From assembly GCF_023650515.1 (NCBI RefSeq), contig NZ_CP096016.1, positions 652,513-676,512 on the forward strand: a DNA stretch of 24,000 nucleotides, given 5' to 3'. A model generated the notes under the pieces. That model was not told where the DNA came from and made no database searches. It worked only from the letters and a program-made list of their open reading frames with translations. This document shows, in pieces, positions 13,517 through 17,762 of the stretch (position 1 is its first letter; each line of letters starts with the position of its first letter). This DNA is from Alkalimarinus coralli. GTDB taxonomy: Bacteria; Pseudomonadota; Gammaproteobacteria; Pseudomonadales; Oleiphilaceae. The position numbers and the translations under genes are program-made.

Positions 13517-13780
13517 CGTTATTTTACCTGAGTGTTTGATGTTGGCTAAATAAGTTGTGTCGCCTGGGGATTATTTTAGCTCAAACGTTTGGCCGATTGT
13601 TAGCTTTAATATTTAAGCCCTTATTTCAAGTGCGTGTGCTTAAATGTGAATATCAATAGTATAACTTGCATAAATGCGCGCTGGTGAAAGGTTTTAAGAT
13701 TGGCCTTTAACGGTGATAAAAGGCAAAATATGCGCCGCGAAACTCTGATTAGCCTTTTTTCAAGAAAGAGAATTACTGGA

Positions 13781-14890
13781 ATGCCTCATTTATCCCCAAT
13801 TGAACAATATCAACACGATTTGAAAAATAGTGGATTTATGCGCGACTCTGCGCAAGAAAATGCTATTAATCATCTTCAGGCGCTTTATGAAAAGCTGGTT
13901 GATGCGGAAAAAAACCAAAAGAAGGGGCGGTTTGCCAAGCTGGCGGCAAAGGTTCAGCGTAAAAAGGCTGCACCTATTAAAGGATTATATTTCTGGGGAG
14001 GGGTAGGTCGAGGAAAAACCTACTTAATGGATATATTTTTTGAGAGTTTGCCTTTTGATCGAAAAATGAGAGTGCACTTTCACCGTTTTATGCAGAGAGT
14101 TCACCATGAACTCGCTGAACTAGAAGGGCAGGCTAACCCATTGGTCGATGTTGCAAAACGTTTTAGTGATGAGGCTAGAGTTATCTGCTTTGATGAGTTT
14201 TTTGTTACAGATATTGGTGATGCAATGATTCTGGGTGGGTTAATGAAAGAGTTGTTTGCTAATGGTGTTTCACTGGTTTGTACATCGAATATAGTGCCCG
14301 ACGGTCTTTACAAGGATGGTTTGCAGCGAGCCCGATTCTTGCCAGCTATTGCATTAGTCAATGAGCACACAGATGTTGTAAATGTTGATGGCGGGACAGA
14401 TTACCGTTTGCGCTCACTTGAGCAAGCGGAGTTATATCATTTTCCATTGGATGATGGGGCAGATAAAAGCTTGGAAGAGAGTTATGGCAGCCTAGCCCTG
14501 GAAGCAGGTGTTCATGGTTTGGCGTTAGACGTTAATGGTCGCCAACTTACTGCCAGAAAGCACTCTGATGACGTTGTCTGGTTTGAGTTTAAAGAGCTGT
14601 GTGATGGGCCTAGGAGTCAAAACGACTACATTGAGCTTGCTCGAGAGTTTCATGCGGTTTTAGTAAGCAATGTGCCTGTGATGGGGGGAGATACCGATGA
14701 TCAGGCAAGACGTTTTATCAATATGATTGATGAGTTTTATGATCGAAATGTGAAAGTTATTATTTCGGCAGAAGCGCCTATTCACAAGCTCTACAGTGGT
14801 GGAAAGCTCAATTTCGAGTTTGAGCGAACTGAAAGCCGCTTACTTGAGATGCAATCTCATGAATATCTGGAAGCGCCACATAAGCCTTGA
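13781..14890 (+). CDS. zapE: Cell division protein ZapE (AFG1-like ATPase, YhcM)
   Basis: Track ORF 13700-14890 has a TTG start. The ATG at 13781 (MPHLSPIEQYQHDLK) matches the ZapE N-terminus. Walker A GGVGRGKTYLMD and Walker B VICFDEF. The stop TGA at 14888-14890 abuts the IS. Confidence 0.85.
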   Translation: MPHLSPIEQYQHDLKNSGFMRDSAQENAINHLQALYEKLVDAEKNQKKGRFAKLAAKVQRKKAAPIKGLYFWGGVGRGKTYLMDIFFESLPFDRKMRVHFHRFMQRVHHELAELEGQANPLVDVAKRFSDEARVICFDEFFVTDIGDAMILGGLMKELFANGVSLVCTSNIVPDGLYKDGLQRARFLPAIALVNEHTDVVNVDGGTDYRLRSLEQAELYHFPLDDGADKSLEESYGSLALEAGVHGLALDVNGRQLTARKHSDDVVWFEFKELCDGPRSQNDYIELAREFHAVLVSNVPVMGGDTDDQARRFINMIDEFYDRNVKVIISAEAPIHKLYSGGKLNFEFERTESRLLEMQSHEYLEAPHKP

Positions 14891-14909
14891 GTACAGTCGT
14901 ATCTCCTTC

Positions 14910-14921
14910 CATCACGGCTAC
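14910..14921. repeat. Left subterminal inverted repeat (IRL) of the IS
   Basis: CATCACGGCTAC is the exact reverse complement of 16531-16542. Confidence 0.8.
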
Positions 14922-15030
14922 AACTGCACATAAGCAATATAGGGTAATGGTATGGACCCGCTTACCAAACGGCTTCAAATGAGCCATGATGAGATTTGCA
15001 TATAACATCAACAGGTAAGGGGTCCACAAA

Positions 15031-16056
15031 ATGAATACTATCACCTATGGTTTGGATTTGGCCAAAAATATCTTTCACGTACATGCAGTCACAAGCAAGG
15101 GTGAGATTGAGATCAAGAAAAAGCTTCGCAGGAAAGAGGTGTTAGCTTTTTTCGCCAAGCGAGAGCCAGGGTTGATAGGCATGGAAGCGTGTGGCGGCTC
15201 TCATTACTGGGCGCGTGAGCTAACAAGGTTGGGTTATACCGCCCGATTAATGAGTCCACAGTTTGTTAAGCCCTATATTAAAGGAAATAAAAATGACGCT
15301 AATGACGCAGAAGGGATATGCGAAGCGGTAACACGACCCAATATGAGGTTTGTGGCGGTAAAAAGCAGCGCACAGCAAGATATATTAATGCTACACAGGG
15401 TGCGAACACAGAGGATCAAGCAGCGGACAGCACTCGCAAACCAGACGAGAGGTCTCTTAAGTGAATATGGGATTGTTATACCGATAGGTATCAGCAATGT
15501 TCGGAAGCATCTTATTGATATTCTGACTGATGCTGATGAAAAAAGGCTAAGTGAATTTGTACGGCCACATTTCAATAGTTTATATGAGGAGTTGCTTCAT
15601 ATTGACGGGTTGGTAAAAGAAATAGATGTAGCATTGAAAACCTATTTCAACACCAGTAAGGACTGTCAGCGGTTAGCAAGCTTGCCGGGGGTTAGTGTCA
15701 TTACAGCAACGGCATTAGTAGGATATTTAGGCGATGTCAGCAATTTCAATAATGGCAGGGAGTTGGCGGCCTACCTAGGCTTAGTGCCTAGACAGCATTC
15801 AACTGGAGGAAGAGAGCTTCTGCTTGGAATTAGTAAACGGGGAGACAGTTACCTTCGAACCCTTCTAATTCATGGCGCGAGGTCTGTACTGAAAGCAGCC
15901 TCAGAGAAGAAAGATAAAGATAGTCTTTGGTTAATGAACTTGCATGCTCGACGTGGTTACAATAAAGCCGCAGTAGGACAAGCTAACAAAACGGCTCGAC
16001 GTATTTGGGCTCTTTTATCAAACGAAACACAGTACGAGGTTAAACAAGCAGCATAG
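15031..16056 (+). CDS. IS110-family DEDD transposase/recombinase
   Basis: 341 aa. The N-terminal RuvC-like DEDD region has YGLDLAK, GMEACGG and NDANDAEGI. The C-terminal Transposase_20-type region reads LASLPGVSVITATALVGYLGDVSNFNNGRELAAYLGLVPRQHSTGGRELLLGISKRGDSYLR. An AAGGGG RBS lies upstream. Confidence 0.92.
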   Translation: MNTITYGLDLAKNIFHVHAVTSKGEIEIKKKLRRKEVLAFFAKREPGLIGMEACGGSHYWARELTRLGYTARLMSPQFVKPYIKGNKNDANDAEGICEAVTRPNMRFVAVKSSAQQDILMLHRVRTQRIKQRTALANQTRGLLSEYGIVIPIGISNVRKHLIDILTDADEKRLSEFVRPHFNSLYEELLHIDGLVKEIDVALKTYFNTSKDCQRLASLPGVSVITATALVGYLGDVSNFNNGRELAAYLGLVPRQHSTGGRELLLGISKRGDSYLRTLLIHGARSVLKAASEKKDKDSLWLMNLHARRGYNKAAVGQANKTARRIWALLSNETQYEVKQAA

Positions 16057-16200
16057 CTGCATGTCAATACACGGTTAAGAGGCAAGGAGTAAGAAGAGTA
16101 AACGGCAGGTTATCTTGCCACTAAATTGCAAAACAGATTCATCGAATGGTAAGACAGATAAGACCGTCTTCTGTGTCACCTGAGAAGCGCACGGGCTCTT

Positions 16201-16543
16201 AGAAGCCGATAGGGTGATGAGTACACTGGAAGAGCGGAATTCCATTGCGGCCGAAGAAAATAAACGTTCTTCACCTGTAGGCCGGATATATGCGAGCAGT
16301 CAATACCTAGAAGATCACTCACCGAATCTGGTTGCAATAAACAGCGGGTCCATATATGCGCTTGCGCACCATTGTATATCTGGGATATTTCGTAATCGTT
16401 GCGGCAACCGGTGCGCAAGCGCACCCTATAATTTAATTCCACATGTGTCAGTTAAGAGGCACTGCTTGCTGACTTGGATAAACCCTGATTCCGCTTTGCT
16501 GCACTAAGGCTGCCAGTGCTAACTAAGACGGTAGCCGTGATGA
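16201..16543 (+). ncRNA. Candidate IS1111-type guide RNA (bridge RNA / seekRNA) region in the 3' non-coding part of the IS; the transcript ends are unknown
   Basis: The region has no credible ORF. It contains a 12/12 copy of the predicted RE|LE junction (16214-16225), a 12-nt complement of the LE leader (16343-16354) and a perfect 14-bp stem (16357-16370 / 16410-16423). It also has an 18-nt segment (16483-16500) complementary to the right chromosomal flank (16544-16561; 16/18, one mismatch being G-U). The structure was read by eye, not modelled. Confidence 0.35.
16531..16542. repeat. Right subterminal inverted repeat (IRR) of the IS
   Basis: GTAGCCGTGATG is the exact reverse complement of 14910-14921. 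Confidence 0.8.
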
Positions 16544-16577
16544 AGCGAAGCGGAATCAAGGAAAGGCTCTATAATGG

Positions 16578-17762
16578 TTAGATCAATTCAATCGCCATAG
16601 CTGTCGCCTCGCCACCGCCAATACACAATGCTGCAACGCCGCGTTTTTTACCGTACTGCTTAAGTGCGTACATCAGTGTAACGAGAAGACGGGAACCTGT
16701 TGATCCTACCGGGTGCCCTTGTGCGCATGCTCCGCCGTGCACATTAACCTTTTGCGGGTCTAGTCCAAGCTCTTTGATAGGCATCATTGCGACCATTGCG
16801 AATGCTTCGTTGATTTCAAACAGGTCAACGTCGTCTTTGCTCCAGTTTGCTTTTTCCAGAACTTTTTCGATTGCACCAACGGGGGCGATAGTAAACTCTG
16901 ACGGGTGTTGGGATTGCGTGCTATGAGCAACAATGCGCGCTAGGGGTTTTAGCCCCTTGGCGTTAGCTTCAGACTCGCTCATTAGCACCAGTGCAGAGGC
17001 GCCATCAGAAATAGAAGAGGCGTTTGCGGCAGTAATCGTGCCGTCTTTTGCGAAAGCAGGACGGAGTGACGGAATCTTCTCAATATTAGCGTTATGCGGT
17101 TGTTCATCATCCTTAACTACGGTTTCACCTTTGCGGCTTTTAACGGTGATTGGGATGATCTCTTGCTCTAACGAGCCATCTTCAATTGCCTTTTGAGCAC
17201 GTTTCAGAGAGTTGATAGCATAGTCATCCATTTCTTCGCGGGTATATCCCTTCTGGCTGGCTACATCTTGGGCAAATGAGCCCATGAGTCGACCCGTTTC
17301 GGCATCTTCCAGCCCGTCCAGAAACATGTGATCCATCGCTTGATCGCCGTGCCCCATACGGTATCCTTTTCTAGCGTTAAGGAGTATGTAGGGCGCGTTA
17401 GACATACTTTCCATTCCGCCTGCGACCATGACGTTGTTGCTCCCTGCTTTTATAAGGTCGTGTGCAAGCATCGCAGCTTTCATGCCTGACCCGCAAAGCT
17501 TGTTGATGGTGGTGCAGCCCGTCGCGTCGGGCAGCCCGGCTTGTCTTGAAGCCTGGCGGGCAGGGCCTTGTTTCAGGCCTGCAGGCAATACGTTACCCAT
17601 TATGACTTCTTGAACATCTTCAGGTTTAATACCTGCTCTAAGAACAGCTTCTCTAATAGCGGTTGAACCTAGCTCTGTCGCGCTAATACTGCTTAGGCTT
17701 CCCTGAAACCCTCCCATTGGCGTTCTGGCACCACTTACAATTACAACGTTTTCTACCGACAT
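16578..17762 (-). CDS. Acetyl-CoA C-acetyltransferase (thiolase II family)
   Basis: 394 aa. MSVENVVIVSGARTPMGGFQGSL N-terminus, active-site Cys context INKLCGSGMKA and C-terminal GGACAQGHPVGSTGSR...LCIGGGEATAMAIE. Confidence 0.9.
   Translation of the reverse strand: MSVENVVIVSGARTPMGGFQGSLSSISATELGSTAIREAVLRAGIKPEDVQEVIMGNVLPAGLKQGPARQASRQAGLPDATGCTTINKLCGSGMKAAMLAHDLIKAGSNNVMVAGGMESMSNAPYILLNARKGYRMGHGDQAMDHMFLDGLEDAETGRLMGSFAQDVASQKGYTREEMDDYAINSLKRAQKAIEDGSLEQEIIPITVKSRKGETVVKDDEQPHNANIEKIPSLRPAFAKDGTITAANASSISDGASALVLMSESEANAKGLKPLARIVAHSTQSQHPSEFTIAPVGAIEKVLEKANWSKDDVDLFEINEAFAMVAMMPIKELGLDPQKVNVHGGACAQGHPVGSTGSRLLVTLMYALKQYGKKRGVAALCIGGGEATAMAIELI

What the first reader, a model, noticed from the sequence alone, without database searches (positions are those of the whole stretch)
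16201..16253. Internal mimic of the predicted circle junction (right end joined to left end) inside the non-coding region
GTGATGAGTACA (16214-16225) equals the last 7 nt of the proposed right end (GTGATGA, 16537-16543) fused to the first 5 nt of the proposed left end (GTACA, 14891-14895). It can equally be read as overlapping the left flank TGAGTACA (14888-14895) through the shared TGA.

The similarity extends in both directions:
- GAAGCCGATAGG-GTGATGA (16202-16220) aligns with TAAGACGGTAGCCGTGATGA (16524-16543). That is 15 matches over 20 columns, with one gap.
- TTCCATTGCGGCC (16240-16252) aligns with TTCCATCACGGCT (14907-14919, which includes IRL). That is 10/13, and all three differences are transitions.
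- The spacing from GTACA to this block is similar: 19 nt here against 16 nt at the left end.

The non-coding region therefore contains a degenerate IRR-TGA-LE-IRL cassette, which looks like the excised-circle junction.

There are two possible readings:
- It is a donor-recognition module of the guide RNA.
- It is a relic of a tandem or composite structure: a 1,330-bp IS at 14891-16220 followed by a 323-bp transposase-less derivative at 16221-16543.

A contiguous top-strand copy is not what the published IS621 donor-binding loop looks like, so the first reading is uncertain.
Basis: seen in the sequence. Interest (0 to 1): 0.7.

Follow-up and report, generated by a model that had tools for sequence, protein, structure and literature searches.

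The report
Guide RNA of a REP-targeting IS1111 element

Summary
Comparison with 36 distinct related elements puts the insertion sequence at 14946-16357, not 14891-16543. It lies inside a REP palindrome, TATAGGGT^GCGCTTGCGCACC, and an intact copy of that REP sits at 16410-16431.

The cassette 16201-16253 is 100% identical in relatives whose flanks are unrelated. [quoted passage not shown] - 16209-16216 (ATAGGGTG) copies the target top strand across the insertion point.
- 16185-16192 (AAGCGCAC) is complementary to that same site.
- 16241-16246 (TCCATT) is complementary to the first bases of the true left end.

All three covary with flanks or ends across the family.

It is also out of register with the real crossover, and its GTACA half is partly base-paired in a helix. 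No tandem or composite structure exists here.

Verdict: a new member of the known IS1111 seekRNA/bridge-RNA kind.

The parts
14946..16357 (+). The insertion sequence proper (1,412 bp; the boundary is ambiguous by 1 nt because T precedes both joints). It runs AATGGTATGGACCC...GGGTCCATATAT.
   Evidence: Ends and sub-terminal repeats sit at the same positions in 36 distinct relatives. The flanks of relatives differ beyond the REP halves.
14938..14945 (+). Left half of the interrupted REP target (TATAGGGT).
   Evidence: Together with 16358-16370 it is 21/22 identical to the reverse complement of the intact REP at 16410-16431. The same arrangement is seen in L002, L003, L076 and L078.
16358..16370 (+). 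Right half of the interrupted REP target (GCGCTTGCGCACC).
   Evidence: It pairs with 16410-16423 as a REP doublet (I3).
16410..16431 (+). Intact REP in the opposite orientation (GGTGCGCAAGCGCACCCTATAA); effectively an empty-site paralogue.
   Evidence: The same 22-mer occurs in the flank of the relative L076.
14951..14962 (+). True left sub-terminal inverted repeat (TATGGACCCGCT).
   Evidence: 12/12 with 16343-16354 (I6). It sits about 80 nt before the ATG in nearly every relative where it could be located (71-89 nt).
16343..16354 (+). True right sub-terminal inverted repeat (AGCGGGTCCATA).
   Evidence: I6. It usually sits 41-52 nt after the GGATATATG motif across the family, and further away in a few relatives.
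15031..16056 (+). DEDD transposase of 341 aa.
   Evidence: PF01548 and PF02371. There are thousands of homologues; the closest is 90% identical.
16125..16338 (+). Guide RNA gene (seekRNA / bridge-RNA type), with a closing stem 16125-16140 x 16324-16338.
   Evidence: The core 16153-16308 scores 130.5 bits, E 2e-34, with a model built from 54 homologues. Over 24 pairs, 98.1% are paired; covariation is 0.281 against 0.099 in shuffles, 0 of 500 as high. The closing stem appears in the single-sequence fold.
16185..16192 (+). Target guide complementary to the top strand (AAGCGCAC pairs with GT|GCGCTT across the insertion point).
   Evidence: Its reverse complement matches the last 2 nt of the left flank plus the first 6 nt of the right flank at 8/8 here. 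Across 33 loci the mean is 6.33/8 against 4.49 for permuted pairings, 0 of 5000 as high; 22 distinct guides.
16194..16207 (+). Small apical hairpin of the target loop (GGCT...AGCC).
   Evidence: pair 48/56 shows 18 compensatory changes.
16209..16216 (+). Target guide copying the top strand (ATAGGGTG = last 7 nt of the left flank plus first nt of the right flank).
   Evidence: The variable position agrees with the left flank in 36 of 37 loci, over three states G/T/A.
16222..16233 (+). 3' strand of the helix that closes the target loop (pairs with 16167-16176).
   Evidence: All 6 core pairs show compensatory changes. The extension ACAC x GTGT was predicted on the 8-sequence alignment.
16241..16246 (+). 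Donor guide complementary to the first 6 nt of the true left end (TCCATT against AATGGT, 5/6).
   Evidence: Family mean 5.0/6 against 4.19 permuted, 0 of 5000 as high. Position 5 agrees in 34 of 35 loci.
16249..16283 (+). Second-loop stem GGCC x GGCC enclosing a variable hairpin (16253-16258 x 16267-16272).
   Evidence: The hairpin shows compensatory changes visible in the alignments.
16284..16292 (+). GGATATATG: a top-strand copy of the right end (ATATAT) plus the first flank base; invariant in the family.
   Evidence: The 4 nt after ATATAT match the right flank slightly better than permuted pairings (2.27 against 1.99). The role is inferred.
16332..16337 (+). TTGCAA: the -35 box of the promoter that joining the true ends would create (N17, then TAT from 16355-16357 plus AAT from 14946-14948).
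   Evidence: A -35-like box followed after 16-17 nt by TATAAT or TATGAT is predicted in 32 of 36 distinct relatives, and by a one-base variant of the -10 in the other four. No + strand promoter is found in the integrated element.
16483..16561 (+). Separate palindromic spacer element; not part of the insertion sequence.
   Evidence: I1 (32-nt arms, 78% complementary). The IS-free spacer folds with z = -6.4.
14891..14937 (+).
   Evidence: No match in any related locus.

Best explanation
Window 14946-16357 is an IS1111-group insertion sequence in Alkalimarinus coralli. It is inserted, without target duplication, into one REP of an inverted REP pair in the zapE-thiolase spacer.

Its 301-bp region downstream of the transposase gene encodes a structured guide RNA (about 16125-16338) with two internal loops.

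Loop 1 is the target loop, closed by helix 16167-16176 x 16222-16233:
- 16185-16192 pairs with the target top strand.
- 16209-16216 pairs with the target bottom strand.
- The two guides overlap at the insertion point T|G of TATAGGGT|GCGCTT.

Loop 2 is the presumed donor loop:
- 16241-16246 is complementary to the first bases of the left end.
- GGATATATG copies the right end.

Basis of each step:
- Shown here: the element boundaries, the conserved RNA structure, and the covariation of the guides with flanks and ends.
- Inferred from ISEc11, ISPa11 and IS621 work: the RNA binds the transposase and guides recombination between the circle junction (CCATATAT|AATGG, which would create a TTGCAA-N17-TATAAT promoter) and the REP.
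For: Family assignment:
- Pfam DEDD_Tnp_IS110 plus Transposase_20.

Boundaries:
- Oleiphilus copies share only the segment equal to window 14939-16370.
- The closest relative, L076, has the same REP halves but unrelated DNA beyond them.
- The sub-terminal repeat position is conserved across the relatives where it could be located.
- An intact REP paralogue lies at 16410-16431.
- A junction promoter is predicted in all 36 distinct relatives.

RNA:
- The cassette is invariant in close relatives although the transposase gene is only about 75% identical at nucleotide level.
- 54-sequence alignment and consensus structure.
- 98.1% of pair cells are paired; covariation 0.281 against 0.099 in shuffles (0 of 500) and 0.035-0.10 in slid controls.
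- The covariance model gives a single hit of 130.5 bits.

Guides:
- Bottom-strand guide variable position agrees in 36 of 37 loci; top-strand guide 6.33/8 against 4.49 permuted, 0 of 5000.
- Donor guide 5.0/6 against 4.19 permuted, 0 of 5000.

Agreement with published IS1111 seekRNAs (PMC11187229):
- The order, with the top-strand match 5' of the bottom-strand match and the two overlapping in the target.
- The RNA lies downstream of the transposase gene.
- The promoter forms at the circle junction.
Against: - No expression, RNA-protein binding or transposition data exist for this element.
- The donor-loop assignment rests largely on two clades, so there are few independent events, and on invariant motifs that cannot covary.
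- In the window the donor guide matches the left end at only 5/6.
- The 5 nt after the bottom-strand guide (ATGAG) have no assigned role here.
- Other copies in the A. coralli genome could not be inspected, so the ends rest on relatives and on the REP paralogue, not on same-genome copies.
- The 1.4% shuffle frequency for 'mimic plus TGA repeat' is low, although post hoc.
Confidence: 0.88

Rival explanations
1. The element spans 14891-16543, is bounded by a TGA core and the 12-bp repeats 14910-14921 / 16531-16542, and 16214-16225 is a donor-binding copy of its circle junction GTGATGA|GTACA.
For: - The 12/12 inverted repeat exists (I5).
- TGA is present at both borders, and the 12-mer is identical to the joined borders.
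- 'Mimic plus direct repeat' occurs in only 28 of 2000 shuffles.
Against: - The cassette is identical in relatives that lack these borders.
- The family-wide sub-terminal repeats and ends lie at 14951/16354 and 14946/16357.
- The RNA guides match the inner flanks, not CCTTGA|AGCGAA.
- The proposed junction point 16220|16221 is 5 nt away from the family's crossover position 16215|16216.
- Most of the GTACA half (ACA, 16223-16225) is base-paired in the closing helix.
- 16543 lies within an arm of hairpin 16483-16561.
- The outer sequences are absent from all related loci.
Confidence: 0.03
2. The region is a relic of a tandem or composite structure: a 1,330-bp IS (14891-16220) followed by a 323-bp transposase-less derivative (16221-16543).
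For:
- A real tandem repeat of the guide-RNA-plus-right-end module is seen in one relative, L062, so such structures can arise in this family.
Against: - The conserved RNA and its helices span 16220/16221 without a break in 54 homologues.
- The covariance model finds no second copy in 16371-16600.
- Similarity between the non-coding region and the flanks is at shuffle level.
- Nothing in the window or in any relative ends at 16220.
Confidence: 0.01
3. The inner IS is as described, but the surrounding 241 bp of palindromic spacer (14891-14945 plus 16358-16543) is itself a mobile REP cluster or MITE. It would have entered at TGA before the IS arrived, and its resemblance to the RNA would be coincidental.
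For: - The 12/12 outer repeat is unlikely by chance within a spacer of about 275 nt (own estimate).
- The same spacer in A. alittae and A. sediminis is unrelated in sequence and carries other palindromes, so there is turnover at this site.
- A public read-assembly contig breaks at window 16532, as would happen at a repeat boundary.
Against: - No second copy of the outer sequences occurs in the 24-kb window or in any fetched locus.
- The repeats are asymmetrically placed, 19 nt and 1 nt from the TGA.
- The right repeat is better explained as part of the local hairpin 16483-16561.
Confidence: 0.25

Closest known systems
IS1111-family elements with a 3' seekRNA (ISEc11, ISPa11, ISKpn4, ISPst6; Siddiquee et al. 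2024, PMC11187229)
   Same: - DEDD transposase of 330-350 aa.
- Sub-terminal inverted repeats.
- Long non-coding region downstream of the transposase gene that encodes the guide RNA.
- Two short guide segments matching opposite strands of the target and overlapping at the insertion point, with the top-strand match 5' of the bottom-strand match.
- No target duplication.
- Promoter formed by joining the ends.
- ISPa11 also targets a REP.
   Different: - Different RNA sequence family, with no Rfam model.
- Different REP target: (G/A)TAGGxT^G..., 7 nt into the REP.
- A 5-6-nt left-end extension, against the 7 nt described for ISEc11.
- Nothing has been tested experimentally here.
IS621 / IS110-group bridge RNA (Durrant et al. 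2024, PMC11208160; Hiraizumi et al. 2024, PMC11208158)
   Same: - A two-loop RNA in which each loop holds one segment copying and one segment complementing the DNA top strand around a shared crossover.
- One loop for the target and one for the donor.
- IS621 also inserts into REPs.
   Different: - The RNA is at the right end, not the left.
- The order of the guide strands within a loop is reversed.
- The sub-terminal repeats are long (12 bp against 2-3 bp).
- No clear shared core dinucleotide could be defined (GT on the target side, AT on the donor side).
REP/BIME-targeting IS110-family elements of Pseudomonas (ISPpu9, ISPpu10; PMC12288879; Tobes and Pareja 2006, as cited there)
   Same: Site-specific insertion at a fixed position within a REP, preferentially in inverted REP pairs.
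   Different: - ISPpu9 belongs to the IS110 group and lacks terminal repeats.
- Its small-RNA module (ssr9) is separately mobile.
- No separately mobile module was found at this locus.

Membership tests
IS1111 group of the IS110 family | DEDD (RuvC-like) N-terminal domain plus the Transposase_20 C-terminal domain; protein of 330-350 aa. | tested here: met
   PF01548 (E 3e-17) and PF02371 (E 3e-23); 341 aa.
IS1111 group of the IS110 family | Sub-terminal inverted repeats of 7-17 bp. | tested here: met
   12/12 repeats at 14951-14962 and 16343-16354, lying 5 and 3 nt inside the ends (I6). The position is conserved across relatives.
IS1111 group of the IS110 family | The longer non-coding region lies downstream of the transposase gene. 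| tested here: met
   301 bp downstream (16057-16357) against 85 bp upstream (14946-15030).
IS1111 group of the IS110 family | Site-specific insertion without target-site duplication. | tested here: met
   The flanks rejoin to a REP that is 21/22 identical to the intact REP at 16410-16431. Close relatives (L002, L003, L076, L078) are inserted at the same position in REP-like palindromes, and more distant ones share the (G/A)TAGGxT left flank.
IS1111 group of the IS110 family | A circular intermediate whose junction forms a promoter. | not testable with these tools
   In silico only. Joining the ends gives TTGCAA-N17-TATAAT, and the arrangement is predicted in 36 of 36 relatives. No circle was observed.
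seekRNA / bridge RNA | A conserved structured RNA with internal loops, encoded in the long non-coding region. | tested here: met
   54 homologues, 24 pairs, 98.1% paired, covariation above all 500 shuffles and all slid controls.
seekRNA / bridge RNA | Two guide segments matching opposite strands of the target, overlapping at the insertion point and covarying with the target. | tested here: met
   16185-16192 and 16209-16216; 36 of 37 loci agree, and 6.33/8 against 4.49 permuted, 0 of 5000.
seekRNA / bridge RNA | Segments matching the donor ends (donor-binding loop). | tested here: inconclusive
   16241-16246 complements left-end positions 1-6 (5.0/6 against 4.19 permuted), but the variation is mainly between two clades. 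The right-end copy GGATATATG is invariant, so it cannot covary.
seekRNA / bridge RNA | The RNA is expressed, binds the transposase and is required for circle formation and insertion. | not testable with these tools
   Needs RNA-seq, co-purification and transposition assays.
Rfam RNA families | A match to a curated covariance model. | tested here: not met
   No hit at gathering thresholds in the window. Only a chance snoRNA hit, E 0.66, in 14880-16600.

The most novel reading that the evidence does not exclude
The identity between the conserved RNA stretch GTGATGAGTACA and the joined outer borders (GTGATGA|...|GTACA, both next to TGA) is not chance. On this reading, the element's recombinase and RNA once recombined a pseudo-site GTGATGA/GTACA with CCTTGA/AGCG by off-register or 'half-match' recombination. 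That would have relocated the whole 1.65-kb REP-flanked segment as an expanded unit.
Probability: 0.03. Interest if true: 0.6.

Novelty: new member of a known kind. Interest (0 to 1): 0.25.

Why it matters
The scientific gain is modest. The window holds a previously undescribed REP-targeting IS1111-type element. Its relatives, from marine, soil and other metagenomes, carry at least 22 naturally reprogrammed top-strand guide variants. That gives a ready comparative data set for the guide rules of IS1111-type RNAs: two 8-nt guides overlapping by 3 nt at the crossover, and a left-end-complementary segment in the second loop. These RNAs are less well characterised than IS621.

There is also a practical lesson for element annotation. 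When an insertion sequence lands in a repeat cluster, the nearby palindromes supply convincing but false 'terminal repeats' and 'junction' matches. Boundaries must come from comparison of copies.

Tried and rejected
- Rfam, at gathering and relaxed thresholds: no family.
- Plasmid collection, blastn of the whole element: only distant transposase hits and no informative copy.
- Exact look-up of the window's transposase to find same-genome copies: not on record. The A. coralli genome contigs were not returned for the thiolase either, so same-genome copies could not be compared.
- Search for an empty site in A. alittae and A. sediminis: the spacer is unrelated there, so there is no direct empty site.
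- The left-end minus-strand hairpin 14964-14985 as a mimic of the RNA's apical hairpin (model hit E 0.9): rejected. Its stem does not covary with the RNA's hairpin in the other clade.
- A handshake-guide reading of ATGAG (16217-16221): in the sister clade the RNA GAT.AG matches that clade's left end GATGAG at 5/6, but in the window's clade the left end is AATGGT. Left unassigned.
- The variable loop 16273-16279: no relation to flanks was seen by eye; this was not quantified.

Full report
**What is at the site**

The window region between a zapE/AFG1-type ATPase gene (13700-14890, +) and a thiolase gene (16578-17762, -) holds a 341-aa ORF (15031-16056, +) with the two Pfam domains of IS110/IS1111 transposases. 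The thiolase is 100% identical to that of Alkalimarinus coralli.

**Where the element really ends**

- *Oleiphilus copies.* A genome-collection scan with the transposase found relatives. Four copies in one Oleiphilus MAG (79% amino-acid identity) share only a 1,437-bp segment, which corresponds to window 14939-16370. Their flanks differ completely outside it.
- *Sub-terminal repeats.* A metagenome scan with two invariant RNA motifs gave 59 more loci, of which 13 were spurious. In the loci with enough flank, the inverted repeat sits 71-89 nt (mostly about 80) before the ATG and usually 41-52 nt after the GGATATATG motif. In the window this pair is 14951-14962 / 16343-16354 (12/12, I6).
- *REP target.* The first 7 nt (ATAGGGT) and last 13 nt (GCGCTTGCGCACC) of the shared segment belong to the target, not to the element. 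Joined, TATAGGGT + GCGCTTGCGCACC is 21/22 identical to the reverse complement of an intact palindromic repeat at 16410-16431 (GGTGCGCAAGCGCACCCTATAA).
- *Relatives at the same site.* The Oleiphilus copies sit in that organism's version of the repeat (GGTGCGCATGGCGCACCCTATAAAGG). The closest relatives (L076 at 90% and L078 at 82% amino-acid identity) sit in ..TATAGGGT|...|GCGCTTGCGCACC and ..TTTAGGGT|...|GCGCTCGCGCACC, with unrelated DNA beyond.
- *Conclusion.* The element is 14946-16357 (AATGGT ATGGACCC ... GGGTCCAT ATAT), give or take 1 nt. It is inserted without duplication into one REP of an inverted REP pair.
- *Junction promoter.* Joining these ends creates a perfect -10 hexamer from 3 nt of each end (TAT|AAT), with TTGCAA 17 nt upstream. 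A -35-like box followed after 16-17 nt by TATAAT or TATGAT is predicted in 32 of 36 distinct relatives, and by a one-base variant of the -10 in the other four. The integrated element has no + strand sigma-70-like promoter. This matches the junction promoter described for ISEc11 (PMC11187229).

**What the cassette is**

The region 16120-16320 is nearly invariant between the window and the Oleiphilus elements, although the elements as a whole are only about 75% identical in nucleotide sequence.

A 54-sequence alignment gives a consensus structure. In it, 98.1% of pair cells are standard pairs. The covariation score is 0.281, against 0.099 in shuffles (0 of 500 as high) and 0.035-0.10 when partners are slid. 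A covariance model built from the alignment hits the window once, at 16153-16308 (130.5 bits), and nowhere else. Rfam has no such family.

The RNA (about 16125-16338, with the closing stem) has two internal loops.

*Loop 1* is closed by helix 16167-16176 x 16222-16233 and capped by hairpin 16194-16207.
- Its 5' side holds AAGCGCAC (16185-16192), the reverse complement of GT|GCGCTT, which is the target across the insertion point.
- Its 3' side holds ATAGGGTG (16209-16216), a top-strand copy of ATAGGGT|G.
- Both guides covary with the flanks. The variable base of the second guide agrees with the left flank in 36 of 37 loci (G, T or A). The first guide's reverse complement matches its own junction at 6.33/8, against 4.49 for permuted pairings (0 of 5000), over 22 distinct guide sequences.
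- Order and overlap are as reported for IS1111 seekRNAs: the top-strand match lies 5' of the bottom-strand match (PMC11187229).

*Loop 2* is closed by GC 16234-16235 x GC 16296-16297, with stems 16244-16246 x 16285-16287 and 16249-16252 x 16280-16283 and a variable hairpin.
- It holds TCCATT (16241-16246), complementary to the left end AATGGT (5/6). Across the family this is 5.0/6 against 4.19 permuted, 0 of 5000.
- It also holds GGATATATG, which copies the right end ATATAT.
- I take loop 2 to be the donor loop. That is an inference, because most of the variation is between two clades.

So 16201-16253 comprises the 3' strand of the apical hairpin, one target guide, five unassigned bases, the closing helix, and one donor guide.

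- The cassette is conserved where the outer borders are absent.
- The proposed joint (16220|16221) is 5 nt downstream of the position that corresponds to the crossover in the guide (16215|16216).
- Most of the GTACA half (ACA, 16223-16225) is paired in the closing helix.
- 16543 lies inside an arm of a separate hairpin, 16483-16561 (I1). With the element removed, the spacer folds into that hairpin plus the REP doublet, z = -6.4.
- With free breakpoints, a 12-nt junction mimic turns up in 57% of shuffled flanks. Adding the TGA repeat gives 1.4%, which is post hoc.
- Local alignment of the non-coding region to the flanks is at shuffle level.
- The tandem/composite reading fails because the RNA and its helices run unbroken across 16220/16221 and no second RNA copy exists.

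**What the outer DNA is**

It is most likely native, fast-turning-over palindromic spacer DNA.
- A. alittae and A. sediminis have unrelated spacers of 161 and 127 bp with their own palindromes at this position.
- A public read-assembly contig breaks at window 16532, as would be expected near a repeat boundary.
- Whether the outer 241 bp is itself a mobile REP cluster could not be tested, because other parts of the A. coralli genome were not retrievable.

**Comparison with known systems**

The element meets the sequence-level criteria of the IS1111 group, and its RNA meets those of a seekRNA / bridge RNA (see the membership table). Function remains inferred from ISEc11, ISPa11 and ISKpn4 (PMC11187229) and from IS621 (PMC11208160, PMC11208158, PMC13626964).

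It is a new member of a known kind. Insertion of IS110-family elements into REP pairs is well documented (PMC12288879).

Noticed in passing
L062, reverse-complement orientation, about 1257-1567: The module [guide RNA + right sub-terminal repeat + CCATATAT] occurs twice in direct tandem. The second copy starts right after the first right end. The site before the first copy (GAGGAT|GGGAAA) resembles that element's own target (TAGGTT|GGGTAA). This suggests self-insertion into a pseudo-target in its own non-coding region.
   Followed up: partly
window 16483-16561: An imperfect 32-nt-arm hairpin next to the thiolase stop. A public read-assembly contig (L079) breaks at 16532, which hints that this is a repeated element.
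   Followed up: partly
window 14952-15030: The left-end leader has a hairpin, 14969-14985 (GGCTTC..GAGCC), with compensatory variants in relatives (GGCGTC..GCGCC, GGCATC..GTGCC). The left repeat (14952-14966) is complementary to GGTAAGGGGTCCAC (15013-15026), just before the ATG. This could occlude the ribosome-binding site in the junction-promoter transcript.
   Followed up: partly
L046, left junction (reverse-complement coordinates about 765-790): The left junction reads GTAGGGT-GCG-TATGGAC. The usual first 5 nt of the left end (AATGG) are replaced by GCG, which is also the start of that copy's right flank. This may be a shifted or aberrant recombination joint.
   Followed up: no
L001 about 1535-1666: This relative (80% amino-acid identity) loses homology right after the guide RNA, at the equivalent of window 16322, and has no right repeat. 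It is a truncated or interrupted copy.
   Followed up: no
L080 3686-3846 and L081 3686-3812: The same thiolase-zapE spacer in A. alittae and A. sediminis holds different long palindromes (e.g. CGCCAAAGTGAC...CACTTTGGCG). This spacer appears to be a hotspot for turnover of REP-like elements.
   Followed up: partly
window 16104-16119: A small hairpin, GGCAGG-TTAT-CTTGCC, lies between the transposase stop codon and the guide RNA. L076 has GGCAAGCTATCTTGCC at the same place.
   Followed up: no
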